Shown piece by piece: positions 3,629-33,214 of a DNA stretch of 64,000 nucleotides. This DNA is from Neocallimastix sp. 'constans'. Taxonomy: Eukaryota. Both the position numbers and the translations under genes were made by a program. The notes beneath the pieces are model-generated. The model saw nothing but the letters and a program-made list of their open reading frames with translations. It was not told the origin of the DNA and did not search any database. The stretch covers positions 186,001 to 250,000 of the forward strand of contig JBODTK010000127.1 of the NCBI GenBank assembly GCA_050613775.1. Reading direction: 5' to 3'. Numbering within the stretch: the stretch's first letter is position 1; each line of letters starts with the position of its first letter.

Positions 3629-3632
3629 GAGT

Positions 3633-4650
3633 TGGTAGACTCGGGGTTGACACTTAGATATTTAAAATCAAGCAGGGGGGGACGGGTATTACCCTGCTTT
3701 GATTTTAAAAAAAATAAATCTTTCTTTATTAAAAATTATTTATTTTTTTTATTAATATAAAAGTTTTTTTTTTATTTAAAGTACACATATTTAATTTTTA
3801 AGAAATTGTTACAATATTTATATTTTTTTATAAATTTAAAGTATAATTAATTGTTTATAATTTAAGTAATTTTATAGAATTATTGAATTAATTTTATATC
3901 AATAATTCATTTTTGTTTTAATTTTTATAAATATAATAATATAATATTCAAATATAATTTAATTAAAAATAATTATAAAATAAATATATAGAAAATAGTT
4001 TTTACTATTTTCTTTAATATTTTTAAGTTAAATAAATTGTTTTTAAAGATTAATATAATAAATTTAATAATCTTTAATTATTTTAAATAATACTTGTAAT
4101 TATTTTCAAAATAAAATAAAATTTTTATAATATTTAATTAATAAATTTGATAATATTTAAATAATAATTTTTATAATAAGTAATAATTTTTAATAATAAT
4201 TTTTAATAATAAATTTAATTAATAATCTTAATAATTTTATAATAATATTTAATAGTTATAATAAATAAATTTTTATAATAATATTTAATAATTTTAATAA
4301 TTTTATAATATTAATAATTTATAATAATTTTTAGAATAATATTTAATTAATAATTTTAATAATTTTATAATAATTTTTATAATAATATTTAATTAATATT
4401 TTTAATAATTTAGTATCTTAAAAGTATAATTTTAATATTTACAATTGTATTTTAATATATACATATATTTAATAATATAACAATAAAGTGATTAATTAAA
4501 ATTTATTTACATTATTTACAAATTAAAATTAATTTATATCAAAATAAATTAAATTTACAATGAGGTTTAGGTTATGAAGAATATAGGAAAGTACAATTTA
4601 GTAAAGAATTATTAATAATAAAATAAAGGTTATTAATTCATTCTTTACCA
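3633..4650. mobile_element. Solo LTR 'X' (1018 bp)
   Basis: TGGTA...TACCA terminal inverted repeat flanked by GAGT on both sides (3629-3632, 4651-4654); no ORF; termini resemble the A LTR termini. Confidence 0.75.
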
Positions 4651-4887
4651 GAGTTGATAAATTTTAGAAATTATCTTAATTTTAATATAGAATTAAAAAG
4701 TGATAATTTCAATTTATTTTAATAATAACTGTATAAGTTATTTATGAATTAAAAATGTTTTATTAAAAATAACACTAAAAATTTGATTTATTAGAACACT
4801 TGTTTTCTAATATTTTATTTTATAAATCTTTTATTGAAATTTATTAAACATTATAAAAATTAAAAGTGATTATTAAAATTATAAAAT

Positions 4888-4919
<32 letters not shown>

Positions 4920-5437
4920 TACATGAAATATTTACAAGTATTTATATTTTTCTTTAAAATTAAACTATTTATAATTTATAAATAAAAAGAATAATTAAAT
5001 AAAATAAAAGTAATAAAATTAATAATAAAATAAATAATTAATAATAAAATAAATAAATTTGTTTATTATAAAAATAATTAAAAATATTTTGTTATTTAAA
5101 TTAATTAATTTTGTTATTATAAAAATATTATTTAATTATAAAATTAATTATAAAAATTATTATAAAACTAATTATAAAAATTAATTATTTTATTTTAAAT
5201 TTAATCTTAATATTTTTATTTTGAAAAATATATAATATTTCTTTCATATCTGAGTATTAATGTAATTTTTAAGTGTAATTTATTTGTTTTATTTAATTAA
5301 TTAATTAATTAATTTTTAAATTTTTTTTTTTTTTATTTTATTAAATTATTATTAAACTTGGCTAAGGTTAGTTTCGATTTTATGTATAATATATTTTTAA
5401 GATTTATTAATTTTGTTATTTATCAATTCATCGGCGG

Positions 5438-8400
5438 TTAAGATTGAACTTCGTCCCTTGAAGTTAATTCTTTTTCTGGAATGATATAAGGAAAAACATT
5501 TTTAATATGTACATTTCGATCAAGAAGTTTTCCTGTTTGAGGATCCTCGAGGACAACTGTATTGAATTTTTGTTTGTTAACTACTTTATATGGTCCATAA
5601 AAGTAAGGATTTAATTTACTTCTTCCAATTAATCTTATCATCACGTAATCTCCGGGTTTATAATTTTTCTTTAGTGATTTCGATAGTCCAATGCGATGTT
5701 CCCAATATTGATTTGCGTAATCCGAATATTCTGTTGCTTGTTTCACCCAATTCTGATGTCTTAGGAATCTTCTAAAAATATATTCTTCATCTGTTTCATT
5801 TGGATCTTTGTAAATATCTGGAAACATTACTTCTAATGGCCAGGTGTCTTTTCTCCCATAAAGTAATTCAAAGCTGCTAAATTTTGTTTTGGAATTTTTT
5901 GTTGTTCTAAGAGCCCAAAGTGCGGATGGTAAATATTCATCCCATTCACTTTCGTTTTCAACTAAGAGTCTTAAAATTTTCTCTACTTCTCTATTACGGT
6001 TTTCAATCATACCATTTGATTCTGGATGATGTGGAGATACAAAGTGCACCCATGACCCATAAAGATCGATCATCATTTTAGTAATATCTGATGCGAACGA
6101 ACTTCCATTATCTGTAACAATTATTTCTGGAGGACCATGTCTTGATATAACTTCAGTTAAAAATTTTATAACTTCTTCAGTCTTTGTGTTTGGAATGGCT
6201 TTAGCTTCAACCCATTTTGTGAAGTAGTCAACCAATGTAATAATATACATATTTCCATTTTTAGTAATTGGAAGAGGACCAATCGTATCAAGTCCAACAC
6301 GAGTAAATGGTTGTTCAACTGGTGTTACATTATCTGCAGTGTTTTTCGGGATTGGTTTTGGTCTACAAAGTTGACATTTTCTGCAAGATTTGATCCACAT
6401 CCTAACGTCATTCCAAATGCCGGGCCAATAATATGAATTTAGTATTCTGTTTACAGTTTTTTCGGCTCCTTCATGTCCTACAGAATGAGCACGATTAATT
6501 ATATCCTTTTTGTCTTCATCACGGTAGATAACTTTTAAATAAGTATCATCTTTCTTATAATATAAGGTGTTATCAACAACTTGATAATTCTTAGTGAAGT
6601 ATTTGATTATTCCTTCTGGTAGGTTTAAATCTTTTGGATTAAGATCAGCTAAAATTGTATTAATACATTTTATAATATCTTCGCTGTCTTTTGAAGGTAG
6701 TCTTGAAAGAGCGTCTGCGAAAACATTTTTCTTTCCTTTTTCATATTTTAGTTCAATTTTATATTTGTTAAATTCTTCTATCCAACGCATGTGTCTTCCT
6801 TTATTTGGAATAGTATTTTTGTAAAATCCTAAGAGTGGTTTATGATCCGTAATGAATATAGTTGGTTTCTTGTTACTAATTAAGTACTGACGGAATTTTT
6901 GGATTGCGTAATTAATAGCCAAACCTTCAAGATCAGTTACAGAGTAATTTCTTTCTGGAGGTGATAAAGTACGACTTACACAACAAATTGGGTGTTCTAA
7001 TTTGTCTTCCTCCACCTGTAAGAGGACAGCACCGATACCTTGAGTAGAGGCGTCTGTTCTAACAATAAATTCTTTATCAAAGTCAGGATAACATAATATA
7101 GGGTCAGACAATAAACAGTGACGTATGTCATCAAAAGCTTCATTATGATCAGAAGTCCATATATATGGTTGATTTTTCTTAAGTAGTTTAAAAAGAGAGT
7201 CAGCTCTTATAGAGAAATTTTGTATAAATTTTCTGTAATAACTAGCAAGACCAAGGAAGGACCTGAGCTCATTAACATTTTTGGGAGCTTCCCAAAGGGC
7301 TATACTTTGAACTTTAGAAGGAACAGTTTTTAAACCATTAGGGGTAAGAACATGACCTAAGACTTCAATTGATTCTTGGAAAAATTTGCATTTTTGAAGA
7401 TTGAGGGAGAGATTATACTTGGAGAATATTTCAAATACTTGTTTTAAATGTTCAAGATGTTCTTCAATAGAAGTAGAATATACAACTATGTCATCGATGT
7501 AAACGAATAAGCATTTACCAATGAGGGGTAAAAGGATTCTGTTCATCTCCCTTTGAAAGGTAGCGGGAGCATTAGTTAAACCGAAAGGCATAACAACAAA
7601 ATTATAGTTTCCAAATTTTGTTGTGAAAGAAGTTTTTTCGATATCTCTGGGATTCATTGGGATTTGGTGATAACCCGAATATAAGTCAAGGGCTGAAAAT
7701 ATTTTAGCACCTCTAACTGAAGAGACAAGTTCATCGATGAAAGGAAGTGCATATGAATCTTTAATAGTGATTTCATTAAGCCTTCTGTAATCTATACATA
7801 GTCTCCATTTCCCATTTTTCTTTCTGACTAATAAAACAGGAAATGACCAAGGAGAATGCGAGGGAATAATTAAGCCTTTATTAAGTAAGGATATAATTTC
7901 TTCTTTTAGAATATCAGAATGCTCTTTTGATAATTTATAAGGTTTTAGCTTAATAGGTTTTTCCGTAGTAGTAATTATTGAATGTGGTTCAAGGTTAGCA
8001 GTTGTTAGCTGACTTAGTGATGTTGCCATACAATTTTTGTATTGATTAATAAGATTTTCAAATTTTGATTTAACTTTATCTGGAACAGAATTGAGAATTT
8101 CGTTTAAGGTAGAGTTAAATTCACGAATTTCTTCATCTTCTTTAGATACATAAATAGCATTCATTAAGGGAATATTATTTGTGTTATTTGAGTTAATTAT
8201 CTGGATTATCTTTTTAAGACCTTTTCTTGTTTTCTGATATATGAAATCATCATCTGGATCAATAAGTAATCTATATTTCTTTTGGATACTTCTTCCAAAA
8301 ATAATATCAAAGTATGGATTATCTTGATTTATAATATAAAATTTTTCATAAATGTTGCAAGAATCATTAATGTTAATTTTCAATGGAACATAGTATTTAG

Positions 8401-9313
8401 TAGGTACTGTAGATCCATTTGCTAAAGTAATATTTTGTTCTATTATATCTTCTTCAATTTTCACATCATTAAATTTATTTAAACATCCTGTTGTTATAAC
8501 ATTTACATTTGCTCCTGTATCGTAAAGAATTTTTAAAAATACTTCTTTCGTTTTTCCAATGAAGATTGGAATAGGAATATTATAAAGAGAGCATAATACA
8601 TTTTCTATCTTTGGCTTACAACCTTGTCCTAATTCCTTCCTAAGAGTAGGACTAATAAAAAGTAATTGTGCAAGACTAATTTTCGGAAACAAGTTGTTGG
8701 CTTCCTTAATTATACTAAATTTATTACCTGATTCTAACATTTGTATATCTGTCATACTTCTTTTTCTGGTTTGTTTAGTTTGACTGAGAGATTGACTATG
8801 TGTTAGAACGTCTTTGGTATTATTTTCATTATTTATTTTTCTATGTTCATCAATTATGTTAATTACATTATTTTTATTATTTCCATTATTACTTTCATTA
8901 TTATTTCCATTATTGATTTCTGAATTATTTTTCATTTCAGAATCTTTTGTATTTTCCTTTGTATTATATGGTTCATCAATAATAATTTCCTCATTATCAT
9001 TTAATTCATGGTCATTTTGTTTTTCATTATTAAGTTCTTCACTTATTTTTCTTCTTCTTGTATTCCTAATTGCTTTCTTTTGTTGTTTAACTTTCTTAAT
9101 ATTTGGTTGATTGAGAATGGATGGTTTAACTATACTTTTATTATTTTGAGAGATTTTATTCTTATCCAAAGTACTTGTAGGCACTTTCTTTTTCTGGGCT
9201 ACATTAATTTGAGGGATTTGATTTTTTTCGTTATTAAGGTAATTTATTGATTGATTTGATGATGCAATTTTAGTTATTTTGGGAGATTGCTTACTCCCAT
9301 AATTTAATTTAAA
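5438..9313 (-). CDS. pol: Pol of B (PR-RT-RNaseH-IN), expressed by -1 frameshift
   Basis: LYDTGA protease, YIDD RT, RTDAS RNase H, HHCC and DDE integrase, GPY motif; Gypsy domain order. Confidence 0.95.
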   Translation of the reverse strand, partial: FKLNYGSKQSPKITKIASSNQSINYLNNEKNQIPQINVAQKKKVPTSTLDKNKISQNNKSIVKPSILNQPNIKKVKQQKKAIRNTRRRKISEELNNEKQNDHELNDNEEIIIDEPYNTKENTKDSEMKNNSEINNGNNNESNNGNNKNNVINIIDEHRKINNENNTKDVLTHSQSLSQTKQTRKRSMTDIQMLESGNKFSIIKEANNLFPKISLAQLLFISPTLRKELGQGCKPKIENVLCSLYNIPIPIFIGKTKEVFLKILYDTGANVNVITTGCLNKFNDVKIEEDIIEQNITLANGSTVPTKYYVPLKININDSCNIYEKFYIINQDNPYFDIIFGRSIQKKYRLLIDPDDDFIYQKTRKGLKKIIQIINSNNTNNIPLMNAIYVSKEDEEIREFNSTLNEILNSVPDKVKSKFENLINQYKNCMATSLSQLTTANLEPHSIITTTEKPIKLKPYKLSKEHSDILKEEIISLLNKGLIIPSHSPWSFPVLLVRKKNGKWRLCIDYRRLNEITIKDSYALPFIDELVSSVRGAKIFSALDLYSGYHQIPMNPRDIEKTSFTTKFGNYNFVVMPFGLTNAPATFQREMNRILLPLIGKCLFVYIDDIVVYSTSIEEHLEHLKQVFEIFSKYNLSLNLQKCKFFQESIEVLGHVLTPNGLKTVPSKVQSIALWEAPKNVNELRSFLGLASYYRKFIQNFSIRADSLFKLLKKNQPYIWTSDHNEAFDDIRHCLLSDPILCYPDFDKEFIVRTDASTQGIGAVLLQVEEDKLEHPICCVSRTLSPPERNYSVTDLEGLAINYAIQKFRQYLISNKKPTIFITDHKPLLGFYKNTIPNKGRHMRWIEEFNKYKIELKYEKGKKNVFADALSRLPSKDSEDIIKCINTILADLNPKDLNLPEGIIKYFTKNYQVVDNTLYYKKDDTYLKVIYRDEDKKDIINRAHSVGHEGAEKTVNRILNSYYWPGIWNDVRMWIKSCRKCQLCRPKPIPKNTADNVTPVEQPFTRVGLDTIGPLPITKNGNMYIITLVDYFTKWVEAKAIPNTKTEEVIKFLTEVISRHGPPEIIVTDNGSSFASDITKMMIDLYGSWVHFVSPHHPESNGMIENRNREVEKILRLLVENESEWDEYLPSALWALRTTKNSKTKFSSFELLYGRKDTWPLEVMFPDIYKDPNETDEEYIFRRFLRHQNWVKQATEYSDYANQYWEHRIGLSKSLKKNYKPGDYVMIRLIGRSKLNPYFYGPYKVVNKQKFNTVVLEDPQTGKLLDRNVHIKNVFPYIIPEKELTSRDEVQS

Positions 9314-10197
9314 CACTCTTCTTCTAATTCAGGGCAATCATCTTTAACATGACCTATTCTTTGACAATTTAAGCATACATTGATTTTTAAATCAGCAAGT
9401 TTCTGAGTTATTTCTTGTAATTCATCATCTTGAAGTTGTGTAGGTTTCAATGTGACTTTTCTATTTTCAACATTTTGATTAATATAATTATGAGTAGGTT
9501 TTATATTATTATTATATTTTTGGTAATTATTGTTGTGACTATTATTTATATTATTATTCTTATTATTAAATGAATTATTTTTATTATAAGTACTTGTATA
9601 ATATGTTCCATAATTATTTTGAGTGTTAGATTTTATTTTTCTTTTGTTTGATTCTCCTTTATCTTTAGACCTATTTGATTCTACTAATTTATATATCTTC
9701 TCCTTTTTAGACGTTATTTGCATTGCATCTTTTAAGTTTTGCGGTTCTACTTCTAATAAAGCCTCATAGGTTTTAGTTAAAGTCCGAAATGCATTAATAT
9801 AATAAGAGATTATAACTTCCTTATTTAAATCAATTCTAATTTTATTTAAAAGTGTTTCAAACCTTATGTTGAATTCTGCAACACTTTCACCTTTCTTAAT
9901 TGTAGCTGTTGAAAGTTCTAATAACCTTGAATTTTTAGGAAGAGGACCCTTGTAATGTTCCTGTAATTTACTTATAATGGTATCATATTTATCTGGGGTA
10001 GTTTTATTTAATGAATTTATTACTATCTTTCTTGCAATACCAGTAGTAATTGAAATTAAACATTCTATCTTTTCTTCTTCGTCAATTTTATTGGAATTAC
10101 ACCAACGAGTATATGAGAAATTCCAATCATCAAATTCTACAGTCGGTTGACCTAATATAGGAATTCTGTTGAAATTAATTGATTTTAAATCGGACAT
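9304..10197 (-). CDS. gag: Gag of B
   Basis: 297-aa ORF upstream of pol with CLNCQRIGHVKDDC zinc knuckle. Confidence 0.9.
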   Translation of the reverse strand: MSDLKSINFNRIPILGQPTVEFDDWNFSYTRWCNSNKIDEEEKIECLISITTGIARKIVINSLNKTTPDKYDTIISKLQEHYKGPLPKNSRLLELSTATIKKGESVAEFNIRFETLLNKIRIDLNKEVIISYYINAFRTLTKTYEALLEVEPQNLKDAMQITSKKEKIYKLVESNRSKDKGESNKRKIKSNTQNNYGTYYTSTYNKNNSFNNKNNNINNSHNNNYQKYNNNIKPTHNYINQNVENRKVTLKPTQLQDDELQEITQKLADLKINVCLNCQRIGHVKDDCPELEEECLN

Positions 10198-10403
10198 TTT
10201 ACTCTGGAATTTAGAAGTATTTTTGTTTTCTCTTTAATATAATTTATATACTTTATTTTATATAATAATTTATTCGCTAACAAAATATTTATATATTTAA
10301 ATTTAATTATTTAATCAAATTTTTAATTAATTAAAATTTTATATATTCAATTTCAATATATTTATTCATTCACTTATTATACGTTTCTTTAATTAGTTAT
10401 TAT

Positions 10404-10461
<58 letters not shown>

Positions 10462-11175
10462 TTATTTATTTAAGAACCTCGAATTATATATGTAGCAGTA
10501 ATAGATTTTCTTGGCGTTCTGATTATATTTTCGACCTCATTAGACTCTACTTACTCTCTTGTGCTGTTTTCATTCGACTGGTTATAAAGTTTTCCGTTTC
10601 TCTGGATCTCTCACCAAAGTATCGATATAACCAATCAATTACTCTCCAGTACAATTTTCAGTTCTGTCTAACCTCTACTCTCTATAATCAGGACCCAATA
10701 CTCTCTCTTGCTACTCTAATTTATATCTTATTAATCGCGACCTAGAGTCAAGCTCCAATAGTTTATGATTAATAAAATATAAACCTATATAATTCTTTAA
10801 AATTAAAATAGAATTTTTTTTTTTTTTTTTTTTTTTCAAAATATTATCTATCGTTTCCTTTCCTTATATTTGTCGTTCTTTTCCTATTTATTTATTATTT
10901 TCTTCTTAATATAAATGGCTTTCTTCCCAATATTAATTTAATTTCTATTTATTATATTATTATTATATTATTATATATATATACATATATATATATATTT
11001 TATTTTTAATTTTAAATTATGAATTTTTATACTAGTTCATACTCTAGTTTTAATTTTTAATTATTATTATATAATAAATATTATTTATCCTTTATTTTAT
11101 TATTATGAATTTTTATACTAGTTCATACTCTAGTGTTAATAAATAATACTTATTAATAATAAGTTAGCTGCCTCT

Positions 11176-11191
11176 CCGGTTCGAAGGACCA
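11176..11191 (-). promoter_or_regulatory. PBS of B (tRNA-Tyr 3' end)
   Basis: TGGTCCTTCGAACCGG, complementary to the eukaryotic tRNA-Tyr end (...CCGGCUCGAAGGACCA); 1 nt from the LTR. Confidence 0.85.
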
Positions 11192-11425
11192 CTGATAAAT
11201 TTTAGAAATTATCTTAATTTTAATATAGAATTAAAAAGTGATAATTTCAATTTATTTTAATAATAACTGTATAAGTTATTTATGAATTAAAAATGTTTTA
11301 TTAAAAATAACACTAAAAATTTGATTTATTAGAACACTTGTTTTCTAATATTTTATTTTATAAATCTTTTATTGAAATTTATTAAACATTATAAAAATTA
11401 AAAGTGATTATTAAAATTATAAAAT

Positions 11426-11457
<32 letters not shown>

Positions 11458-12681
11458 TACATGAAATATTTACAAGTATTTATATTTTTCTTTAAAATTA
11501 AACTATTTATAATTTATAAATAAAAAGAATAATTAAATAAAATAAAAGTAATAAAATTAATAATAAAATAAATAATTAATAATAAAATAAATAAATTTGT
11601 TTATTATAAAAATAATTAAAAATATTTTGTTATTTAAATTAATTAATTTTGTTATTATAAAAATATTATTTAATTATAAAATTAATTATAAAAATTATTA
11701 TAAAACTAATTATAAAAATTAATTATTTTATTTTAAATTTAATCTTAATATTTTTATTTTGAAAAATATATAATATTTCTTTCATATCTGAGTATTAATG
11801 TAATTTTTAAGTGTAATTTATTTGTTTTATTTAATTAATTAATTAATTAATTTTTAAATTTTTTTTTTTTTTATTTTATTAAATTATTATTAAACTTGGC
11901 TAAGGTTAGTTTCGATTTTATGTATAATATATTTTTAAGATTTATTAATTTTGTTATTTATCAGAGTGATATGGGCACAGATCACACACAATATTTTAAA
12001 AACACAATATTAAATATTATAAATAAATTTTTATTAGTTTAAAAGTATTTTATAAATTTTTATTTTATTTTATTGTCCTTTTCAAAAGAAAGAAAATTTC
12101 TTCCTTTTATAGTTTTTTACATGAATCTTGAATTGAACATTAACATATACATTTATTTATATTATTCTATTATGAATGTTATTTTAATATTAATATATTT
12201 TAAAATTAACCTATTCTAAAGTATCTATTTTAAAATATAGTTGTATAATTATTAATGATTTATTTATATTTAAAATTTTAACTATCTATTCTAATAATGT
12301 TTTAATTTATCAATTAATATATAATTTAATATTCTTGTAAATTATTAATATTATATTCTCATAAAGTTTATTATTGTAAAAAGAATACAGAAAATAATAA
12401 TCTATTTTAGAGAAAACAATAAAAATAATAGTTAGTATTGTCAATCGATTTAATTTTATACAGAATTAAATATTTCTGTATTTATTTTATTAAAAACAAT
12501 TTATAGATAATTATTCTTATTATAAATAATTTTATTATAAATAAATTTTTTTTTTATTATAACTATTTTAATTTTAAATAATTTCATTATTATAAATATT
12601 TTATATTTTTTTTCTTTTTTATCATTTTTATGTATGCTTATTTGAAATAAATAAGCTAGTTCCGGATCAGAATCTCCCCAC

Positions 12682-22057: not shown

Positions 22058-25000
22058 ATGGATTTCAATAGTAATAAACAAGCAATTTCCTCAAGTGAAG
22101 TTAATAATTCCTATCTCCATGATGAAAATGCATCCAAACTTATTACTGCAATTGCTGACTTCATTCCTGCTTTCTTTTCTCCTAATGGTGTCCTCCAAAA
22201 GGAAAATGAAAGCAATAAACTAAATATATTAGAAATTTTAATTCAAAGTGAAGATTTCTTTAAGGAGCATCCAAATTCTTTTCAAAAGGATGAACTAAAA
22301 AGTTCTTTTGTTATTAATAAACTTACTGGTACCGCCAGAAAATGGGGTCTTTCTCTTTTAACTGATGGTACTCTAAAGAACCTTGAATTTAGTAAGTTTA
22401 AGAAGCTCTTACTGGATAACTTTGATATTGGGAATGAAAGGAAGCAAAAATATGTCATCATGGAAAAGTTATGGAAATTGAAACAACTTCAACTAGGAAA
22501 TGTTGCTGAATATACTATTGAATTTCGGAGATTGGCTGGACGTTTAGGATGGCCCGACGAAGTTTTAATTGATATAATCGGTAAGGGTCTACTTGACAAA
22601 GTCCGCGAAGAGTTTGATAAACTCGAAAAGCCATCTACTCTTTTTGAAGCTACCAACATTATTATTGGAATTGATAAGAAGTGTTTTTTGGAAAGTCGTC
22701 TACGCCACAATCAAAAAAATAAATTTAATGGAAAAATGTCGTTTCATAGGAAGAGAAACGATTTACTAAAATCAGAAAAGAATTCTAAACATTCTCATTT
22801 CAGAAAAAATAAGTCTAAAAACGACATACTTTCAGCAAATTACACCCCGAATATTAAAACAACAATCACAACTACCTTCTACCTTGATATTAATGGAAGA
22901 AATATTAAGGCAAATCTATTAATTGATTCGGGTTCTGCCAGAAGTTTTATTTGTAAAAACTTCGCAAATTCTAATAGATTACCTGTGTTAGGACTCAATT
23001 CCCAAATCAACATCCAACTTCCTAATGGGAAAAGTATGAATATCAGACAAACTACTAAGCCCCTTAAATTAAAATTTATGGATCATAAGGAAACTTTTGA
23101 ATTCTGCATTGCTAATCTATCTCTTCAGGGCATTAATGGTATTCTTGGAAGGGATTGGTTATCCGTTCACAATCCTTTCATCGATTATAAAAATAATAGA
23201 ATCTACTTCCTTGGTAGATACTGTGGCTCACATTGCCCATCCTCCAAAAGTAATAAGTTTTTTAATCAAAATAAAAATATTACTGCTTCAATGTTGGAGA
23301 ATTCAGAAGAAGATTCAGTATTACCAAATTCGGCTTTCGATACAGATATCTCAGATTCTGATTTATGTGCTGCAATGATTAATTCAGAAGAAGTAAACAC
23401 TGACGTTCAGGGAAAAGAAGAGATTATTAATAAATACTATTCGGATCTTAAAATAGTATTTGAAAAGAAACAAGCTGAGAACTTACCACCTCATCGTGAC
23501 TATGATATTGCTATTGAGCTTATTCCTGGTGGACAACTTTATTTTGGTCCAATATACTCTCTTACTGTACAAGAACTTAAAGCTTTAAAGGATTATATTA
23601 AGGAAAACTTAAAAAAGAAATTCATTAGGAAGTCAAAATCACCAGCAGGTGCTCCTATATTATTTGTAATGAAACGCGATGGTACCCTTAGACTCTGTGT
23701 AGATTATCGCCGATTAAATGCTATCACAATCCGTAATAGCTACCCAATTCCAAGAATAAATGACTTGATTGAATCCTTTCAAGGAGCTAAGATATTTACT
23801 CGTCTTGACCTTAGATCTGCTTATAACCTAATCAGAGTTAAAGAAGGTCACGAATATCTTACTGCTTTTAGAACCCCTTTAGGACATTTCGAGTATCTCG
23901 TTATGCCTTTTGGTCTTCGAAATGCCCCTTCGGTTTTTCAACGTTTTGTACAAGATATCTTCAGTGATATCATTGGTTCTTTCATGCAAGTCTATCTGGA
24001 CGACATCATTATTTACTCTAACAACGAAGAAGAACATATTAAACATGTTAGGATCGTTCTTCAACTTCTCATCAACAATGGATTATATGCTAAATTAGAG
24101 AAATGTGACTTCCATGTTACTAAAACCACTTTCTTAGGCTTCACTGTTTCTGTAGATGGTCTCACTATGGATAAGGATAAGGTAAAATCTGTTCTGGATT
24201 GGCCTATTCCGAAGAATCAAAAGGAATTACAAAGTTTTCTAGGCTTATGTAATTTCTATAGAAAGTTTATCAATAATTTTGCCAAAAATATGGAACCTCT
24301 TCGTCGACTTTTAAGGAAAAATACTACATTTAATTGGGATGAATCAGCAAATGAAGCTTTTAATAAATTAAAAGAATCTTTTAAAGCTGATGAAGTGCTC
24401 ATTTTTCCTAATCCAGAGAAAGAATTCATCGTTGAAACAGATGCTAGCGACTTTGCTGTCGGTTGCATACTTTCTCAGGTTAGTGACACTGATAACTTAT
24501 TGCATCCCGTAGCCTTCCATTCTAGATCCCTCAATAAAGCAGAAGTCAATTATACTATATATGATAAAGAACTTCTTGCTATAATTACTGCGTTTGAAAC
24601 TTGGAGGCATCATTTAGAAGGCGCAAAATTTCCTGTTCAAGTAATAACAGACCACAAGAACTTATTGTATTTTAAGAAACCCCAACATTTAAATCAAAGA
24701 CAAATTCGTTGGAGTCTCTTTTTATCAAAGTTTGACTATAGGATTGCATTCAGATCAGGCGCTAAAAGTGGCAAACCAGATGCTCTTTCAAGACGCCCAG
24801 ATTTTAAATCTGACTCTTCATCTGAATCACAACCTGTAATTAACAATAATGCTTTCTGTTGTGCTATAAATGACAATATTAGTAGTCTTATTGAAGCACA
24901 GAAAGCTGATAATTATTGTAAAAATATCCTCTTAAAAATAAGGGATAAGTCAAACAACATCAAAAGTTCTTTATTTTCCTTCGTCGATGGCGTACTTCAC

Positions 25001-26101
25001 TTTCAGAAGCGTATTATTATCCCTTCCAGTCTCAGGGCTAGACTTTTAAAGTCTTTCCATGATGCACCCACTAGTGGCCATCAGGGGGTAGATAGGACCT
25101 TTGAAAAACTCAGAAGGAACTACTGGTGGCCTAATATGAAAAAAGATATTTCAAATTATGTGGCTTCTTGTGATGTTTGTTGTAGAAATAAAATCCGTCG
25201 TCATAAACCTTATGGTAAACTAATACCACTTCCTACTCCTACAAAACCCTGGGAAGTTATTGGCGTCGATTTTATTGTTTCATTGCCTTCTTCACAAGAT
25301 TGCACTTGTATCATGGTTGTTTCTGATCATTTAACCAAAATGATTCATTTAGTACCCTGCTCCGATGTTCCTTCTGCCGACTTAACTGCCAAGCTCTTAC
25401 TTTTCCAAGTCTTTAAGTATCATGGTTTTCCTAAAGTGATTGTGTCTGATCATGGTTCCCAATTCTCTTCTCAATTTTGGACTTCGTTGTGCGATGCTAT
25501 TCGTGCTAAACCAAGACTTGCTACTGCTCACCACCAACAATCAAATGGTCAGGTTGAACGGGCTAATGCTGTAATAGAGCAATATCTTCGCTGCTATTGT
25601 TCTTCTGCTCAAAACGAATGGTGTTTCTACCTCCCTTTATGTGAAATGTCCTACAACAACTCCATTCACAAATCAATAGCTCAAACTCCTTTTCATGCTA
25701 ACTATGGATTTGACCCAAATTGTGTTATTGATTCACCACCGATTCTGCTAAAAGATAGTGCTTCTGTTCTTACTAGGGATTGGTCTTCACATTTCAATGC
25801 CCTTCGTCAACATCTAGTTAAAGCCAAAGAAGATTTTAAGAAATATGCTGACAATAAAAAATCTGTAGGACCTGACTTTAAGGTAAATGATTTGGTTATG
25901 CTTAGAAGATACTACTTTACGAATGAACCCTCTAGAAAATTATCCACTCAATATCTTGGACCTTTTAAAATCATCGAGAAAAGGGAAAGAATGAATTACC
26001 GTTTGGAACTTCCAGAGAACTTACATCTCCATCCGGTATTTCATATCTCACAATTGGAACCATATACTAAAAGAAATGAAGACTTAATGGAAACATCATA
26101 A
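22058..26101 (+). CDS. Gag-Pol polyprotein of D (Tf1/Tf2-like, no chromodomain)
   Basis: 1347 aa; LIDSGS, LPPHRDYD, YLDD, ETDASD, integrase ending in GPF...HPVFHISQLEPY. Confidence 0.95.
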   Translation: MDFNSNKQAISSSEVNNSYLHDENASKLITAIADFIPAFFSPNGVLQKENESNKLNILEILIQSEDFFKEHPNSFQKDELKSSFVINKLTGTARKWGLSLLTDGTLKNLEFSKFKKLLLDNFDIGNERKQKYVIMEKLWKLKQLQLGNVAEYTIEFRRLAGRLGWPDEVLIDIIGKGLLDKVREEFDKLEKPSTLFEATNIIIGIDKKCFLESRLRHNQKNKFNGKMSFHRKRNDLLKSEKNSKHSHFRKNKSKNDILSANYTPNIKTTITTTFYLDINGRNIKANLLIDSGSARSFICKNFANSNRLPVLGLNSQINIQLPNGKSMNIRQTTKPLKLKFMDHKETFEFCIANLSLQGINGILGRDWLSVHNPFIDYKNNRIYFLGRYCGSHCPSSKSNKFFNQNKNITASMLENSEEDSVLPNSAFDTDISDSDLCAAMINSEEVNTDVQGKEEIINKYYSDLKIVFEKKQAENLPPHRDYDIAIELIPGGQLYFGPIYSLTVQELKALKDYIKENLKKKFIRKSKSPAGAPILFVMKRDGTLRLCVDYRRLNAITIRNSYPIPRINDLIESFQGAKIFTRLDLRSAYNLIRVKEGHEYLTAFRTPLGHFEYLVMPFGLRNAPSVFQRFVQDIFSDIIGSFMQVYLDDIIIYSNNEEEHIKHVRIVLQLLINNGLYAKLEKCDFHVTKTTFLGFTVSVDGLTMDKDKVKSVLDWPIPKNQKELQSFLGLCNFYRKFINNFAKNMEPLRRLLRKNTTFNWDESANEAFNKLKESFKADEVLIFPNPEKEFIVETDASDFAVGCILSQVSDTDNLLHPVAFHSRSLNKAEVNYTIYDKELLAIITAFETWRHHLEGAKFPVQVITDHKNLLYFKKPQHLNQRQIRWSLFLSKFDYRIAFRSGAKSGKPDALSRRPDFKSDSSSESQPVINNNAFCCAINDNISSLIEAQKADNYCKNILLKIRDKSNNIKSSLFSFVDGVLHFQKRIIIPSSLRARLLKSFHDAPTSGHQGVDRTFEKLRRNYWWPNMKKDISNYVASCDVCCRNKIRRHKPYGKLIPLPTPTKPWEVIGVDFIVSLPSSQDCTCIMVVSDHLTKMIHLVPCSDVPSADLTAKLLLFQVFKYHGFPKVIVSDHGSQFSSQFWTSLCDAIRAKPRLATAHHQQSNGQVERANAVIEQYLRCYCSSAQNEWCFYLPLCEMSYNNSIHKSIAQTPFHANYGFDPNCVIDSPPILLKDSASVLTRDWSSHFNALRQHLVKAKEDFKKYADNKKSVGPDFKVNDLVMLRRYYFTNEPSRKLSTQYLGPFKIIEKRERMNYRLELPENLHLHPVFHISQLEPYTKRNEDLMETS

Positions 26102-27021
26102 TTAAACAGAGCAATGTAAGAATCTATAATTATTTGTTAGCAAATAATTATATTTTCTTAGTTAAGTTATTATAACTATAACTTTATTTAATTACATATA
26201 ATATTTATTAAATTTATTTAATTTAATTTTAAATATTCATTAATTTAACAAAATTTATTTAATAATTTTAAATAATATATTTACAATATGTTAAATTCTC
26301 TACTGTAACTAATGTATTTTGTATTGTATTTTATTCTGTATTTTATAATGTATTCTGTATTTTATAATGTATTCTGTATTTTATAATGTATTCTGTATTT
26401 TATTAACTATTTAATTTTATATTTTTAATATAAGGATAAATTATATGATCGAAATATCTTTTATTATTTTATTCTTTTATTTTCGATCATTAGATTAGAT
26501 TAGAAAATCGGTTAATTAAGATTTTTTCCAATTACTTTTTAGAAGTAATCGGTTTTACTTAATTAATGCGATGATCGATATGGATAGAATATCGATCGAA
26601 AACTTATCTAGGTTTTTCTATCTAATCTTTTCCTAGATAAGAGATTTGTTAAGATTAGAAAACCCTTTCTTATTTAATCTTATTTTCATAAAAAAATATA
26701 AATAAGGCTCTTGAGTTCTCTTTGAGAAATCAAGAGTTATTATTATAAAAAAACATAGTTATAATAGTAACATTTTTATATTTTTAACTTTAATAAATTA
26801 ATAAAAATATTTTATTCAAAAACATATTTTTAAGATCAATTTATACAAACAATTCTTCTCTTACATTTTGCGTTATTATTATAATTAATTTTATAATAAA
26901 CTCTACATTAAAGGTAAAAAAAATTTATTTTATTTTATTTTCTCAACTTAATGAATTAGTCGTTAAGTTGTAGTTAATAATTCTATTTTGAGTTAGTTCT
27001 TAATAGAATTATTACAAAGAG

Positions 27022-30000
27022 TGTAAAGAATTAAATTTAAACTTAATTAAATTTAACCCTTTTCTACAATTAATACTAATATTAATCGAGAAATTAAAAA
27101 AAAAGAAAATACTTAACGAAACTTAAAATAGGGTAGGAGTTTATTATAAGAGATTAGTTCAAATAAAATTTTTATTAAAATATTTTTTATTAAAAATAAT
27201 TTTTATTTAGATTTTGTTATTTTTAAAAAATTAAAAATTTATTTTGTTTATTATTATAATTATATTCTTATAATAATAACTCTTGATTTTCAAAATAAAG
27301 AAAATCAAGAATTATTTATAGTAAAGTTCCAAATCTTAATGAATAACTTTTTAGGAAAAGATTTGGGAGAAAAACCTAAAAAGTTTAATGATCAATTATT
27401 AATAAAATTGATCATATGTTAATTGAATAAAAACCGATATTTTCCAATCGGAAAACTTCAATTAACATTTGTTTTATTTAAACAATGTCAATTATACATG
27501 ACATTGTTTTATTTTAATTAATTTTTTAAATATTAATTATTCTTTTTTCATTTGATTTGTTACATTATGATTTTAATATAATTTTATAATTATTTCTAAA
27601 TTATAATTCTATAATTTATATTAGATTTGTTTAAAATTATATTAATGTAACAATTATTTAAATTAAAACTTAACATATAATTATCAAATGAATTTTAACA
27701 AATATAAAAAATATTAATGTTTAATTATTTTAATATTATTAATTAATACAATGATAAAGAATAATAATTTTACAATATTAATTTTAAATTATTAATAATA
27801 ATTTTATATTAAAAATATTTTATAATAAAGTTAATAAATTTTATTAAATAATTATTATTTTATTTAATAAAGATTAATAATTATTTTTTATTTTAATAAA
27901 GATTAATAATTATTTTTTATTTTAATAAAAATTAATTATTATTCTTTACATTGCACCCTTTAGGATGTGTTCCCATAATTGGAATGCTCTTTTAAATCTT
28001 GATTTCTTTCAACGTAGGGTTCCAATTGGGAGATGTGGAATATTGGATGTAAGTGTAAATTACTTGGAAGTTCCAACCGGTAATTCATGCGTTTTAATTT
28101 TTCCGTTATTCTGAATGGACCTAAGTATTGTGAAGCTAGCTTCTTCGCCGGCTCGTTGGTGAAATAATATCTTTTTAACCACACTTTATTGTTAATATTA
28201 AAATTTGGACCATGTTGTTTCTTGAGGTCATTATACTTTTTGAAATCTTCTTTAGCTTTGACCAGATGAGCTTGAAGAGATTGAAAATGGGCCGACCAGT
28301 CTCTTGTAAGAACTGAAGCATTATCCTTCAAAAGAATTGGAGGGGAATCAATAATACTATTTGGATTAAATCCAAAATTGGCATAGAAGGGAGAGACACC
28401 AATAGACTGATGGAGCGAATTATTATAGGCAAATTCACATAAAGGCAGGTAATAACACCATTCATTTTGTGCTGAAGAGCAGTAGCAGCGAAGATATTGT
28501 TCCACAACGGCATTTGCACGTTCAATTTGGCCATTAGACTGTTGGTGGTGAGCAGTGGCGAGATTAGGCTGAATATGCAAAGCAGAACAAAGAGAAGTCC
28601 AAAATTCCGAAGAAAATTGACTACCATGATCGGAAACGATCGTTTTAGGGAACCCGTGATATCTAAAAACGTTGAAAAGAAGAAGCTTAGCAGTAAGATC
28701 TGCTGAAGGAACATCCGAACAGGGAACCAAATGGATCATTTTGGTGAGGTGATCCGAAACAACCATGATACACGAGCAATCTTGAGAACTTGGCAATGAG
28801 ACAATAAAGTCAACACCGATAATCTCCCATGGTTTTTTAGGAACCGGGAGAGGAAGAAGTTTACCATAAGGCTTATGTCTTCTGGTTTTGCATCTTCCGC
28901 AAGTTTCACAAGATAGGATGTAGTTTTCAACATCCTTCCTCATGTTAGGCCACCAATAATAACGTTTTAATTTATCCATAGTTTTATGGATTCCTTGGTG
29001 ACCGCCTAAAGGGGAGTCATGAAAAGATTGTAAAATCTTTGTTCTAAGAAGAGATGGCACTATTATTCGTCCTTGGAAGTGTAGAACACCACGAATAAGA
29101 CTAAACAATGAGCTTTTGATTTCTTTTGATTTAGATTTTAGTTTGCTCATTGTTTCTTTGCAGAATTTGTCTTGTTTTTGTAAATCGATTAATTTATCAA
29201 TTTTTTCATAAGCTGTACAGCATATTGGGTTGTCATTGGGAATGGCACATGCTATTGGGAAATTATTTTCTTGATAATCCGGCCTTCTTGATAAGGAATC
29301 TGGCTTTCCACTTTTAGTTCCAGGTCTGTAGGAAATACGAAAATCAAATTTAGATAAGAAGAGACTCCATCGTATTTGTCGTTGATTTAAATGTTGTGGT
29401 TTCTTTAAGTACAACAAGTTTTTGTGGTCCGTTATAACTTGAATTGGATACTTCGCACCTTCTAAATGGTGCCTCCATACGTCAAAGGCTGTTATAACGG
29501 CAAGGAGTTCCTTATCATAAATTGTATAGTTCTTTTCATTCGAGTTAAGAGACCTTGAGTAGAACGCAATAGGATGAAGTAGCTGATCATTTTCTGAGAT
29601 TTGAGATAAGACACAACCAATAGCATAGTTGCTTGCGTCTGTTTCGACAATAAATTCTTTGTTATAGTCTGGAAAGATAAGGATTTCATTGGATAAAAAA
29701 GATTTTTTGAGATTTTTGAAAGCATTTTCGGCTTGATCATTCCAGATATATTCACTATTTTTCTTCAAAAGTATGCGGAGAGGTTCCATAATTTCGGCAA
29801 AATTTTTTATAAATCTTCGATAGAAATTACAAAGTCCAAGGAAACTTTGTAATTCCTTAACATTCTTAGGAGTTGGCCATTCAATTATCGATTTTACTTT
29901 ATTTTGATCCATTGTGAGGCCGTTAACCGAAATTGTAAATCCAAGGAAAGTTGTTTCTTTAACATGGAATTCGCATTTTTCTTTCTTAACATATAGGCCA

Positions 30001-32105
30001 TTTTTTATTAATAACGAAAGCACATTTTTAACATGAACGATATGATCTTCAAGATTATTTGAGTAAATAATTATATCATCCAAGTAAACTTGGACGTGAT
30101 CACCAATAAGTTCACCAAGGACATCTTGAATAAAATGCTGGAATACGGACGGAGCATTTCTTAATCCGAAGGGCATCACCAAGTATTCGAAATGGCCGAT
30201 GGGAGTTCTGAATGCTGTGAGATATTCATGGCCTTCTTTAACCCTAACAAGATTGTAGGCCGATCTTAGGTCTAACTTTGAAAATATTTTGGATCCCTTA
30301 AAGGCTTCAATCAAGTCATTAATTCTTGGTAGAGGATAGCTATTTCTAATAGTTACTGCGTTTAGCCTCCGATAATCAACACAAAGTCTGAGGGTTCCAT
30401 CTGGTTTTCTTACAAATAAAATTGGAGCACCAGCGGGTGATCTGGATTTTCTTATGAATCCTTTAATAATATTTTCTTTGATATAATCTTTAAGTGCACT
30501 CATTTCGACTTGTGACAATGAGTAAATTGGACCAAAATAGAGTTGACTTCCAGGGATAAGATCAATGGATATGTCGTATGGCCTATGTGGAGGCAATTTG
30601 TCAGCCTCCTGTTTTTTAAACACAAGAGTTAGATATTTGTAATATTTGTTAATTATTTTTTCTGTCCTTGAAAGTTCTTTTTTAATTTCGGGCATAGCTC
30701 CGCATATATCATTTTCGTAAAGTTCATCTTCTGAAATGGAAGAAGGAATTATTGAATCAGTAGTATCGTCAACCATTGGCGCGGCTACTTCAGAGGAATG
30801 AAAAACAAATTTGTTTCCTTTTGCTGAAGGACAATGATTACTACAGAAACATTCTAAGAAATATATCTTGTTATTTTTAAAATCGATATAAGGATTGTGC
30901 TTAGAAAGCCAATCTCTTCCGAGGATTCCACTAATTCCATTAAGCTGTAAGTTTCCCACAAGAAATTCATATTTCTCTTCGTGATCTAAGAATTTAATTT
31001 TTACTGGTTTTGTTACTTGCTTAATAGTCATACTCTTACTATTAGGCAATTGGATGTTTATGGGGGAAGTAAGTCCTGAAGTCGGGATCCTATTAGCAAT
31101 TATGAAGTTCTTACACATAAAGCTTTTGGCTGATCCAGAATCAATAAGAAAGTTTATTTTTTGTTTTCGTTCGTTTAAAAGAATTACAAACGTAGTAACC
31201 ATAGTAGTTGACTTGTCCGGAGTGTAGTTTGCAGAGAGGACTTCTTTCTTCTGTTTATTGTTAAATTTTGATTTAAAGAAGTTTTTATTACTTGTCTTAT
31301 TTAACTCATATTTCTTTCTTCCAAAAGTTTTACTTTTTCTTCTAGGATCTTCAGAGCTACAACCTCTTAAACTATTTTCGATGTAGCATTTCTTATCAAT
31401 GTTTATTATTATATTGGTTGCCTCAAATAAAGTCTTTGGGTTTTTTACTTTATCAAATTCATCTCTGACTTGATCTATTAGTCCCTTTCCAATAATATCT
31501 ATAAAGACACTATCTGGCCATCCCAGTCTTGAAGCAATTTTTCTAAATTCGATGGTATATTCTGCGGCTTTCCCCAACTTTTGTTGTTGTAAGTTTATAA
31601 GTTTATTTATAAGAATATATTTTTGTTTCTTTTCGTTTCCGGAGTCAAAATTTTCAAGTAAGAGATTTTTGAATTCTTCATACTTTAAAGTGCTCAGGGT
31701 ACCATCCACAAGCAAAGATAACCCCCATTTCTTTGCAAGTCCTCCTAACTTATTAATTACATAAGTATTTTTGGTTTCATCTGACAGGAAAGAATTTGGA
31801 TGGTCGGCAAAGAAATTTTCGCTCTGTATAATTGTTTCTAAAACACTTCCATTGTTCTTCTTCTCACTTTCCTTTAGTAGCATCCCTCCAGGTGAGAAAA
31901 AGGTAGGAACGAACTCTGTTATAGCCTCAATGAACTTAGAAGCATCCACATTTTTATTTATTTTGCTTATTTCTTCCTTTTGGTTCTCAGTAGTTTCCAT
32001 ATCTTATAATTATATATTTTTTTTTTTTTGAAATTAATTATTTATTAATTTATTTATCTAGATTCAAAATTATCTAAAATATATTGTTAGAGCAGTATAT
32101 TATAT

Positions 32106-32156
<51 letters not shown>

Positions 32157-33198
32157 TATTATTATTATAATTATTACTATTTTATCTATTATTATTACTA
32201 TTATTATTACTATTTCTATTATTATTATTACTATATATTTTTTTTTTTTTTATAAATAAGAGTTATTATTGTAAAGAATTAAATTTAAACTTAATTAAAT
32301 TTAACCCTTTTCTACAATTAATACTAATATTAATCGAGAAATTAAAAAAAAAGAAAATACTTAACGAAACTTAAAATAGGGTAGGAGTTTATTATAAGAG
32401 ATTAGTTCAAATAAAATTTTTATTAAAATATTTTTTATTAAAAATAATTTTTATTTAGATTTTGTTATTTTTAAAAAATTAAAAATTTATTTTGTTTATT
32501 ATTATAATTATATTCTTATAATAATAACTCTTGATTTTCAAAATAAAGAAAATCAAGAATTATTTATAGTAAAGTTCCAAATCTTAATGAATAACTTTTT
32601 AGGAAAAGATTTGGGAGAAAAACCTAAAAAGTTTAATGATCAATTATTAATAAAATTGATCATATGTTAATTGAATAAAAACCGATATTTTCCAATCGGA
32701 AAACTTCAATTAACATTTGTTTTATTTAAACAATGTCAATTATACATGACATTGTTTTATTTTAATTAATTTTTTAAATATTAATTATTCTTTTTTCATT
32801 TGATTTGTTACATTATGATTTTAATATAATTTTATAATTATTTCTAAATTATAATTCTATAATTTATATTAGATTTGTTTAAAATTATATTAATGTAACA
32901 ATTATTTAAATTAAAACTTAACATATAATTATCAAATGAATTTTAACAAATATAAAAAATATTAATGTTTAATTATTTTAATATTATTAATTAATACAAT
33001 GATAAAGAATAATAATTTTACAATATTAATTTTAAATTATTAATAATAATTTTATATTAAAAATATTTTATAATAAAGTTAATAAATTTTATTAAATAAT
33101 TATTATTTTATTTAATAAAGATTAATAATTATTTTTTATTTTAATAAAGATTAATAATTATTTTTTATTTTAATAAAAATTAATTATTATTCTTTACA
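27022..33198 (-). mobile_element. Full-length Tf1/sushi-like Gypsy element 'E' (self-priming)
   Basis: 929-bp LTRs at 27022-27950 and 32270-33198, apparently identical. TSD AAGAG. PBS at 32258-32269 complementary to an LTR-internal 12-mer. Confidence 0.95.
27960..32000 (-). CDS. Gag-Pol polyprotein of E
   Basis: 1346 aa, clearly homologous to the D polyprotein; DSG, YLDD, TDAS, integrase; no chromodomain. Confidence 0.95.
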   Translation of the reverse strand: METTENQKEEISKINKNVDASKFIEAITEFVPTFFSPGGMLLKESEKKNNGSVLETIIQSENFFADHPNSFLSDETKNTYVINKLGGLAKKWGLSLLVDGTLSTLKYEEFKNLLLENFDSGNEKKQKYILINKLINLQQQKLGKAAEYTIEFRKIASRLGWPDSVFIDIIGKGLIDQVRDEFDKVKNPKTLFEATNIIINIDKKCYIENSLRGCSSEDPRRKSKTFGRKKYELNKTSNKNFFKSKFNNKQKKEVLSANYTPDKSTTMVTTFVILLNERKQKINFLIDSGSAKSFMCKNFIIANRIPTSGLTSPINIQLPNSKSMTIKQVTKPVKIKFLDHEEKYEFLVGNLQLNGISGILGRDWLSKHNPYIDFKNNKIYFLECFCSNHCPSAKGNKFVFHSSEVAAPMVDDTTDSIIPSSISEDELYENDICGAMPEIKKELSRTEKIINKYYKYLTLVFKKQEADKLPPHRPYDISIDLIPGSQLYFGPIYSLSQVEMSALKDYIKENIIKGFIRKSRSPAGAPILFVRKPDGTLRLCVDYRRLNAVTIRNSYPLPRINDLIEAFKGSKIFSKLDLRSAYNLVRVKEGHEYLTAFRTPIGHFEYLVMPFGLRNAPSVFQHFIQDVLGELIGDHVQVYLDDIIIYSNNLEDHIVHVKNVLSLLIKNGLYVKKEKCEFHVKETTFLGFTISVNGLTMDQNKVKSIIEWPTPKNVKELQSFLGLCNFYRRFIKNFAEIMEPLRILLKKNSEYIWNDQAENAFKNLKKSFLSNEILIFPDYNKEFIVETDASNYAIGCVLSQISENDQLLHPIAFYSRSLNSNEKNYTIYDKELLAVITAFDVWRHHLEGAKYPIQVITDHKNLLYLKKPQHLNQRQIRWSLFLSKFDFRISYRPGTKSGKPDSLSRRPDYQENNFPIACAIPNDNPICCTAYEKIDKLIDLQKQDKFCKETMSKLKSKSKEIKSSLFSLIRGVLHFQGRIIVPSLLRTKILQSFHDSPLGGHQGIHKTMDKLKRYYWWPNMRKDVENYILSCETCGRCKTRRHKPYGKLLPLPVPKKPWEIIGVDFIVSLPSSQDCSCIMVVSDHLTKMIHLVPCSDVPSADLTAKLLLFNVFRYHGFPKTIVSDHGSQFSSEFWTSLCSALHIQPNLATAHHQQSNGQIERANAVVEQYLRCYCSSAQNEWCYYLPLCEFAYNNSLHQSIGVSPFYANFGFNPNSIIDSPPILLKDNASVLTRDWSAHFQSLQAHLVKAKEDFKKYNDLKKQHGPNFNINNKVWLKRYYFTNEPAKKLASQYLGPFRITEKLKRMNYRLELPSNLHLHPIFHISQLEPYVERNQDLKEHSNYGNTS

Positions 33199-33214
33199 AA
33201 GAGTTAGTAAAATT

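What the first reader, a model, noticed from the sequence alone, without database searches (positions are those of the whole stretch)
3629..33204. Six different LTR elements stacked end to end at a single integration point
Seen junctions: A..TATCA|GAGT|X..TACCA|GAGT|B..TATCA|GAG|C..GATCA|AGAG|D..TTACA|AAGAG|E..TTACA|AAGAG|TTAGT. Removing the elements collapses ~30 kb to ...CAGAGTTAGT. TSDs overlap and borrow a neighbour's terminal base: AAGAG needs the last A of C, so D and E came after C. Members differ in primer (Ala, Tyr, self), TSD length (4 vs 5) and orientation, yet none is nested in another. Left members look older (frameshifted A, solo LTR X) while B-E have matching LTRs and intact ORFs. 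Inference: unrelated Gypsy lineages share a nucleotide-precise docking site and build a possibly polarised chronological array. The order of B vs C and D vs E cannot be fixed from TSDs alone.
Basis: partly seen in the sequence, partly recalled or inferred. Interest (0 to 1): 0.92.

Follow-up and report, generated by a model that had tools for sequence, protein, structure and literature searches.

The report
Retrotransposon stack at Pol III promoter
In what is likely an anaerobic gut fungus, four intact jumping genes of two distant lineages and at least one remnant sit end to end at one spot, just in front of a tRNA-type promoter motif that likely belongs to another jumping gene, so they likely all home on that promoter as yeast Ty3 homes on tRNA genes.

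Summary
The stack is real. B, C, D and E are full-length Gypsy elements with 100% identical LTR pairs, joined by 3-5 bp spacers that nest as overlapping TSDs. X is a probable solo LTR. Element A's LTR could not be tied to the end at 3628, so five elements are solid or probable, not six. It is not a tRNA. It lies in a repeated ~0.5-kb sequence that likely is an LTR (Helenus-like). A second stack at 60.8-62.6 kb has a different TSD, which argues against a sequence motif. Insertion order is not fixed by the TSDs: 40 of 120 orders fit, and the fully reversed order also fits. No listed contig bridged the one stack junction tested. This scan noted a two-element stack 16 bp before a tRNA gene in another probable gut fungus (unchecked note). 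Verdict: new variant of Pol III-start-site targeting.

The parts
355..1002 (-). Element A gag (C-like, 27% identity), reading frame shifts twice before the zinc knuckle; rest of A is off-window
1809..1859 (-). A: TGG-starting primer-site-like stretch and probable left end of its 5' LTR (about 1839); right end of this LTR not established
3594..3628 (-). LTR-like terminus ending in CA (left-most member of the stack); 80% like the X right end over 44 nt; resembles B-lineage U3 ends; owner unknown
3633..4650 (-). X, probable solo LTR, 1018 bp, 5-bp terminal inverted repeat, TSD GAGT on both sides; strand inferred from likeness of its right end to B-lineage U3 ends
4655..11963 (-). B, full-length Gypsy; LTRs 4655-5425 and 11193-11963; gag 9304-10233 overlapping pol 5438-9328; tRNA-type primer site; 4-bp TSD GAGT
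11967..19817 (-). C, full-length Gypsy; LTRs 11967-12669 and 19115-19817; gag 17163-18452, pol 12682-17175; tRNA-type primer site; 4-bp TSD AGAG
19822..27016 (+). D, full-length self-priming Gypsy, single gag-pol ORF 22022-26101, no chromodomain hit; LTRs 19822-20723 and 26115-27016; 5-bp TSD AAGAG
27022..33198 (-). E, full-length self-priming Gypsy, single ORF 27960-32003, no chromodomain hit; LTRs 27022-27950 and 32270-33198; 5-bp TSD AAGAG
33199..33204 (.). Right-hand TSD and the common integration point (right cuts of C, D, E after 33203; of X, B after the 33204 equivalent)
33204..33707 (.). H: repeated ~0.5-kb sequence, likely an LTR lacking about 13-15 bp at its left tip; ends in CA at 33707, abutting F pol
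   Evidence: (depth, one loose end in run X14)
33222..33232 (+). Box A-like motif (1 mismatch to a recalled consensus), 19 nt from the last TSD base
33266..33276 (+). Box B-like motif (1 mismatch), tRNA spacing (T8 to G53 = 45 nt)
33299..33303 (+). First run of five T after box B, candidate Pol III terminator (predicted transcript about 100 nt)
   Evidence: role inferred
33699..37589 (+). F, 5'-truncated Gypsy pol of the B/C lineage with one stop; H abuts its left end; probable 3' LTR starts about 37808
60807..60960 (-). Second stack: shortened 5' LTR of a second C-family copy (gag 59077-60348)
60964..61967 (-). Second stack: solo LTR related to D (73% over 830 bp), 5-bp TSD CACGA whose left copy uses the terminal CA of the C-family LTR
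61975..62583 (-). Second stack: LTR G, 7 bp from the D-like solo LTR, followed by a purine tract and the pol-end motif shared with B and C

Best explanation
Four intact Gypsy elements and a probable solo LTR abut at one point that lies 19 nt upstream of the window's only box A/box B pair, and they likely got there by Ty3-like targeting, in which host TFIIIC/TFIIIB bound to that promoter would tether each incoming integrase at the Pol III start site. Shown: the elements, the nested TSDs, the motif pair and its distance, and a second stack with a different TSD. Inferred: (1) the motif pair is a working type-2 Pol III promoter; (2) it is carried by a repeated LTR (H, Helenus-like), so the landing pad is itself a mobile-element part, not a tRNA gene; (3) because the internal promoter stays put and each insertion regenerates the few bases next to it, every new element lands between the promoter and the previous one, giving abutting, non-nested elements with the youngest nearest the promoter; (4) both the tRNA-primed B/C lineage (4-bp TSD) and the self-primed D/E lineage (5-bp TSD, no chromodomain) read the same host complex.
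For: One box A/box B pair in 64 kb on both strands (A <=2, B <=1 mismatches, 30-90 nt apart), and 0 pairs at A <=1, B <=1 in 100 block-shuffled windows. It has tRNA spacing; E's LTR ends 16 bp before the tRNA +1 equivalent, and by the same arithmetic D 16, C 15, B and X 14 bp when each was adjacent. [quoted passage not shown] Cuts on the promoter side fall within 2 adjacent positions for all five elements. The second stack has TSD CACGA, not GAGT/AAGAG, and again puts a D-type element to the right of a C-type one with a TSD that borrows two of its terminal bases. The most decayed members (solo X, frameshifted A) are farthest from the promoter. H is repeated: contig depth 1240-1871 over 33212-33361 in run X3 against 22 in the bin beyond it (the tool warns this is no copy number; in X4 that last bin is 706). 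One contig of run X14 continues left of 33202 with a purine-rich or primer-site-like stretch and a 7-bp inverted repeat of H's right end. 0 of 13 close D/E relatives with a complete integrase C-terminus carry a chromodomain, against 24 of the next 30 hits.
Against: Only one anchor was seen. The second stack has no box A/box B pair beside it in the window; its anchor would have to lie beyond element G, which is rearranged and runs off-window. No transcription start, Pol III occupancy or genome-wide enrichment could be tested (no genome held). H's LTR status rests on one loose end in one run, and its missing left tip is not in the window (one 2-mismatch hit, 1.26 expected by chance). The predicted RNA does not fold better than shuffles (z -1.36). 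D and E face opposite ways, whereas all 16 Pol III-linked Tj1 inserts shared one orientation. TSD geometry alone cannot tell a right-hand anchor from attraction to the neighbour's LTR end. The consensus motifs used are recalled.
Confidence: 0.7

Rival explanations
1. New elements are drawn to the U3 end of a resident LTR (a host factor bound to the LTR, or bendable DNA at its end), so stacks seed themselves wherever a first element lands; the promoter motif is incidental.
For: In both stacks each newcomer's TSD starts within -1 to +2 nt of a neighbour's terminal CA, and every junction can be read as insertion beside a U3 end if E preceded D. The second stack shows no promoter motif.
Against: It leaves unexplained that the only box A/box B pair in 64 kb sits at Ty3 distance and in the right orientation. 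Other LTR ends in the window (both Copia elements, F, H's right end) have no abutting Gypsy neighbour that I could recognise.
Confidence: 0.13
2. The stack formed in front of a real tRNA gene that was later deleted; the deletion fused the last TSD to H by microhomology and removed H's left tip.
For: H lacks about 13-15 bp at its left tip, the missing piece is not in the window, and F next to it is 5'-truncated, so the region has rearranged.
Against: The deletion would have had to place a second box A/box B pair at the same distance as the lost gene. An RNA-run contig matches H back to 33200 and then diverges (piece 15), so the TSD bases AGAG can be native to H.
Confidence: 0.08
3. The integrases recognise a short DNA sequence (GAGTT-like) that each TSD regenerates.
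For: The same AAGAGTTA string occurs in the D/E primer site and transcript start.
Against: The second stack uses CACGA; AGAGTT occurs 32 times in the window on both strands and only the stack sites are used; two lineages about 31-34% identical would have to share the specificity.
Confidence: 0.04
4. Assembly artefact or chance clustering in repeat-rich DNA.
For: No listed contig bridges the E/H junction; LTR pairs that are all 100% identical could reflect polishing.
Against: Neighbours share no overlap an assembler could join; the spacers resolve exactly as 4- and 5-bp TSDs matching each lineage in two separate stacks; chance is about 1e-14 in a rough model.
Confidence: 0.04

Closest known systems
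Ty3 of Saccharomyces cerevisiae and DGLT-A of Dictyostelium discoideum
   Same: Gypsy domain order; Ty3 Gag-Pol is the best solved-structure match for B and E; insertion about 15 bp before a tRNA-type +1 (PMC6101501); either orientation; Ty3 also uses a tRNA relic (PMC5911963).
   Different: The target here is not a tRNA gene but a motif pair inside a likely LTR; several families of two lineages share one point; 4-bp TSDs in B and C; D and E self-prime; a stack of about 30 kb.
Tj1 of Schizosaccharomyces japonicus
   Same: Self-priming, 5-bp TSD, inserts just upstream of Pol III genes (PMC4600332); D and E match on priming and TSD.
   Different: D and E have one gag-pol ORF without a stop and face opposite ways; Tj1 inserted 5-11 bp upstream of mature tRNA ends and in one orientation.
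Helenus / TRIMp3 (LTRs with tRNA-derived Pol III promoter; Cassandra is the 5S analogue)
   Same: H keeps the box A and box B core motifs named for Helenus, with no tRNA cloverleaf (PMC10886601 section 3.5).
   Different: H is about 520 bp against at most 323 bp for Helenus LTRs; its body, second LTR and TSD are unknown; the parts of that paper I read (1-4 of 6) do not describe Helenus as an integration target and its main text does not name Neocallimastix, Piromyces, Anaeromyces or chytrids (supplements not seen).
Double-insertion tandems (R1, P element, jockey in Drosophila)
   Same: Elements separated by a TSD because they entered the same site one after another (10.1101/158386, passages).
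   Different: The passages describe same-family dimers, and LTR tandems there arise by recombination and share an LTR; here different families abut with their own LTRs.

Membership tests
Ty3/Gypsy LTR retrotransposons (B, C, D, E) | Two LTRs with TG..CA ends, TSD, pol order RT-RNase H-integrase | tested here: met
Ty3-type Pol III-start-site targeting | Insertion about 15 bp upstream of the +1 of a box A/box B gene | tested here: met
   14-16 bp at the one anchor seen; n = 1 site
Ty3-type Pol III-start-site targeting | Insertion within 1-4 nt of a mapped Pol III transcription start | tested here: inconclusive
   start not mapped; one RNA-run contig covers 33200-33403 but contigs cannot show a start or prove transcription
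Ty3-type Pol III-start-site targeting | Genome-wide confinement to Pol III genes | not testable with these tools
   no genome held; fetched relatives are collapsed internal regions without flanks
Ty3-type Pol III-start-site targeting | Integrase contact with TFIIIB (Ty3) or RNase H contact with TFIIIC (DGLT-A) | not tested
   no host factor sequence was in hand
Ty3 family proper | tRNA-iMet priming and 5-bp TSD (recalled) | tested here: not met
   B and C have other TGG primer sites and 4-bp TSDs; D and E self-prime; so they work like Ty3 but are not Ty3
Tf1/Tj1-type self-priming elements (D, E) | Primer site complementary to the transcript 5' end inside the LTR | tested here: met
   12-nt perfect complement in both; actual start not mapped
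Chromodomain-bearing chromoviruses (D, E) | Chromodomain at the integrase C-terminus | tested here: not met
   no Pfam chromo hit; 0 of 13 close complete relatives, 24 of the next 30 hits have one
Helenus / TRIMp3 (H) | Box A and box B core motifs without a functional tRNA fold | tested here: met
Helenus / TRIMp3 (H) | The motifs lie inside an LTR | tested here: inconclusive
   right end TG..CA type, repeated, left end inferred from one loose end in run X14
Helenus / TRIMp3 (H) | Short non-coding element with two LTRs, PBS, PPT and 5-bp TSD | not testable with these tools
   only one truncated LTR is in the window
tRNA gene (as anchor) | Cloverleaf recognised by ARAGORN or Rfam | tested here: not met

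The most novel reading that the evidence does not exclude
In anaerobic gut fungi, two deep Gypsy lineages converge on Pol III start sites, and a repeated LTR that carries its own tRNA-type promoter acts as a mobile decoy landing pad: it soaks up other retrotransposons into polarised, time-ordered stacks that record which families were active, newest next to the promoter.
Probability: 0.4. Interest if true: 0.8.

Novelty: new variant of a known kind. Interest (0 to 1): 0.62.

Why it matters
Precise Pol III-start-site integration is described for yeasts and social amoebae (PMC5911963). A case in anaerobic gut fungi with several intact, probably active families would extend it to an early-diverging lineage, show convergence in both a tRNA-primed and a self-primed clade, and offer safe-harbour integration tools for fungi that are hard to engineer (my knowledge, not from a call). 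If the anchor is a transposon-borne promoter, one mobile element redirects others, and each stack is a readable record of transposon activity.

Tried and rejected
tRNA or Rfam RNA as anchor: none. Whole-genome test: no genome held. Viral contigs: no relatives of E, B or the D/E alignment. Metagenome scan with a 20-nt H pattern: 8 of 8 loci were chance matches in 39-50% GC prokaryote-like DNA. Genome-contig scan: 3 loci, plus further contigs from the same two genomes; all were internal regions without LTR flanks, so they say nothing on targets. No second copy of X, A's non-coding part or any LTR among loci L009-L051 at >=78% identity. Reading X as a Pol III gene or as a long-TSD insertion was considered and dropped: no box A/box B pair, and the shared 44 nt are better explained as related LTR ends. 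A-end versus X-end similarity without the TSD is weak alone (6.8% of 500 shuffles reach it). An 8-bp inverted repeat at 3336 could close a 293-bp element ending at 3628 but has no TSD. LTR dating of B-E is impossible (all pairs identical). Folding of the predicted Pol III RNA is not significant. Runs X21-X23 (share 0.00) and unlaid runs were not used as evidence. Not-in-print claim: ten paper searches listed no paper on Pol III targeting or stacks of LTR elements in anaerobic fungi or on LTR-borne promoters as targets; the library lacks most subscription journals, and I recall a 2024 survey of LTR retrotransposons in anaerobic fungi that these searches did not list and that I have not seen.
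Full report
Host and setting. The window is 14-36% GC and full of transposons. The only named close relatives of the E and B polyproteins are gene models labelled Orpsp1 (62% and 44-50% identity), and runs holding the DNA are mostly animal faeces metagenomes. I infer an anaerobic gut fungus (Neocallimastigomycota). No whole genome is held, so genome-wide tests were not possible.

The observation. Self-comparison gives four perfect direct repeats that are the LTR pairs of B (4655-11963), C (11967-19817), D (19822-27016) and E (27022-33198). All four have unbroken pol frames with RT, RNase H and integrase in Gypsy order. Peeling elements off wherever 4-6 flanking bases match on both sides always ends at the same empty site, with 4-bp TSDs for X, B, C and 5-bp TSDs for D, E. 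B and C are 50-52% identical in pol, D and E 67%, and the two pairs 30-34% in full-length alignments: two lineages, four families. D and E carry a 12-nt primer site complementary to a 12-mer in their own LTR, lack a chromodomain hit, and belong to a group in which 0 of 13 complete close relatives have one, against 24 of the next 30 hits. X (3633-4650) has TG..CA ends, a 5-bp inverted repeat and a TSD and is probably a solo LTR. The CA end at 3628 looks like a B-lineage U3 end but could not be tied to element A, whose gag is C-like and frameshifted twice and whose LTR starts near 1839. So: four certain elements, one probable, and a sixth LTR-like end of unknown ownership.

Order. With the left-most CA end present from the start, 40 of the 120 orders of X, B, C, D, E fit, all with C before D and E; strict left-to-right is one of them. 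But every LTR ends in A, so the 'borrowed' base is not proof: inserting E, D, C, B, X, A in that order into a site reading AAGAG regenerates every junction. Three things favour left-old, right-young: the decayed members are on the left; other copies of the right flank diverge from the window at or before 33201 (pieces 7, 15, 30), so AAGAG may not be native; and in the second stack the D-type TSD borrows two bases from C. This is inference, not proof.

The anchor. ARAGORN and Rfam find nothing. A scan with recalled consensus motifs finds a single box A/box B pair in the 64 kb on either strand, at 33222 and 33266 on the + strand, in tRNA spacing, and none in 100 block-shuffled windows. Box A begins 19 nt after the last TSD base; E ends 16 bp before the position equivalent to tRNA +1; a run of five T follows at 33299. 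By the same arithmetic the other elements sat 14-16 bp from +1 when they were adjacent to it. [quoted passage not shown] Tj1 shows that a self-priming element can do the same (PMC4600332, passages).

What carries the promoter. Laying contigs of four runs on 32262-33750 shows the right flank is repeated: depth 1240-1871 over 33212-33361 in X3 against 22 past 33711, 1806-2597 against 706 in X4 (not a copy number). In X14 one contig continues left of 33202 into sequence unlike the window that contains a 7-bp inverted repeat of the end at 33707, preceded by a purine-rich or primer-site-like stretch. I read the flank as an LTR (H, about 520 bp) that has lost 13-15 bp at its left tip to the stack and abuts the 5'-truncated pol of element F. 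That rests on one loose end; the tip is not in the window and would lie beyond A. A tRNA-type promoter without a cloverleaf inside an LTR is the hallmark of Helenus (PMC10886601, parts 1-4 of 6), though H is longer than Helenus LTRs and its body is unknown, so I do not file it there. The contig break at 33202 could reflect a single-base variant among H copies as easily as further insertions.

Second stack. At 60807-62583 a C-family LTR, a D-like solo LTR and LTR G abut with 3- and 7-bp gaps; the solo LTR has a perfect 5-bp TSD CACGA that uses the C-family terminal CA. The TSD differs from the first stack, which argues against a sequence motif. No promoter pair lies beside it; its anchor would be beyond G, which is rearranged and runs out of the window. 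This counts against my reading until checked.

Mechanism. Most likely (0.7): TFIIIC binds the internal boxes and places TFIIIB; incoming intasomes of both lineages are tethered there and cut at the start site; the promoter is untouched, so the next element lands at the same distance, between promoter and predecessor. Shown: anatomy and geometry. Inferred: promoter activity, tethering, polarity, H as an LTR. Rivals: attraction to resident LTR ends (0.13), a lost tRNA gene (0.08), a sequence motif (0.04), artefact or chance (0.04).

Novelty. Pol III-start-site targeting and double-insertion tandems (10.1101/158386, passages) are known. Ten searches listed no paper on this in anaerobic fungi or on LTR-borne promoters as targets, within a library that lacks most subscription journals; supplements of PMC10886601 were not seen and could list further hosts. 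This scan has unchecked notes of a two-element stack 16 bp before a tRNA-Leu gene in a probable gut fungus and of tRNA-targeting Gypsy elements in another early-diverging fungus; they agree but are not independent support. I score it a new variant of a known kind, interest 0.62.

Noticed in passing
window 45725-58700: Two different Copia elements (about 45743-52101 and 52171-58609) both sit in (ATT)n microsatellite runs, 65 bp or so apart, at the point where the second C-family copy is cut off in its poly-Asn stretch; possible microsatellite preference.
   Followed up: partly
window 1250-1460: A's 5' untranslated region holds about five short hairpin repeats whose left arms resemble box B; one scores within 1 mismatch (1346) but has no box A partner.
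   Followed up: partly
window 3660-3712: Strong hairpin near the left end of X (z -3.4 on +, -4.5 on -); role unknown.
   Followed up: no
window 33212-33272: The predicted Pol III RNA in H folds as two hairpins before a T5 run, reminiscent of dumbbell Pol III RNAs in foamy-virus LTRs (recalled); not more stable than shuffles.
   Followed up: partly
window 5438-5460, 12682-12705, 62605-62625: B, C and G share an exact 16-bp motif at the very end of pol, 22-25 nt from the 3' LTR, although their LTRs differ; a B relative (L012) has a variant. Possible cis signal for reverse transcription or packaging.
   Followed up: no
window 62600-64000: Behind LTR G the minus-strand pol end is joined to a plus-strand RT/RNase H fragment, i.e. 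an internal inversion or rearrangement.
   Followed up: no
L009, L010, L011 and other contigs of G001 and G002: Two prokaryote genome bins (titled Erysipelotrichaceae and Methanosphaera MAGs) contain fungal LTR-retrotransposon contigs, one 98.9% identical to E: binning contamination.
   Followed up: partly
window 38644-40210 and 43072-44523: An intron-containing NADH:flavin oxidoreductase gene and a MULE transposase with FLYWCH domain lie between the two stacks.
   Followed up: no
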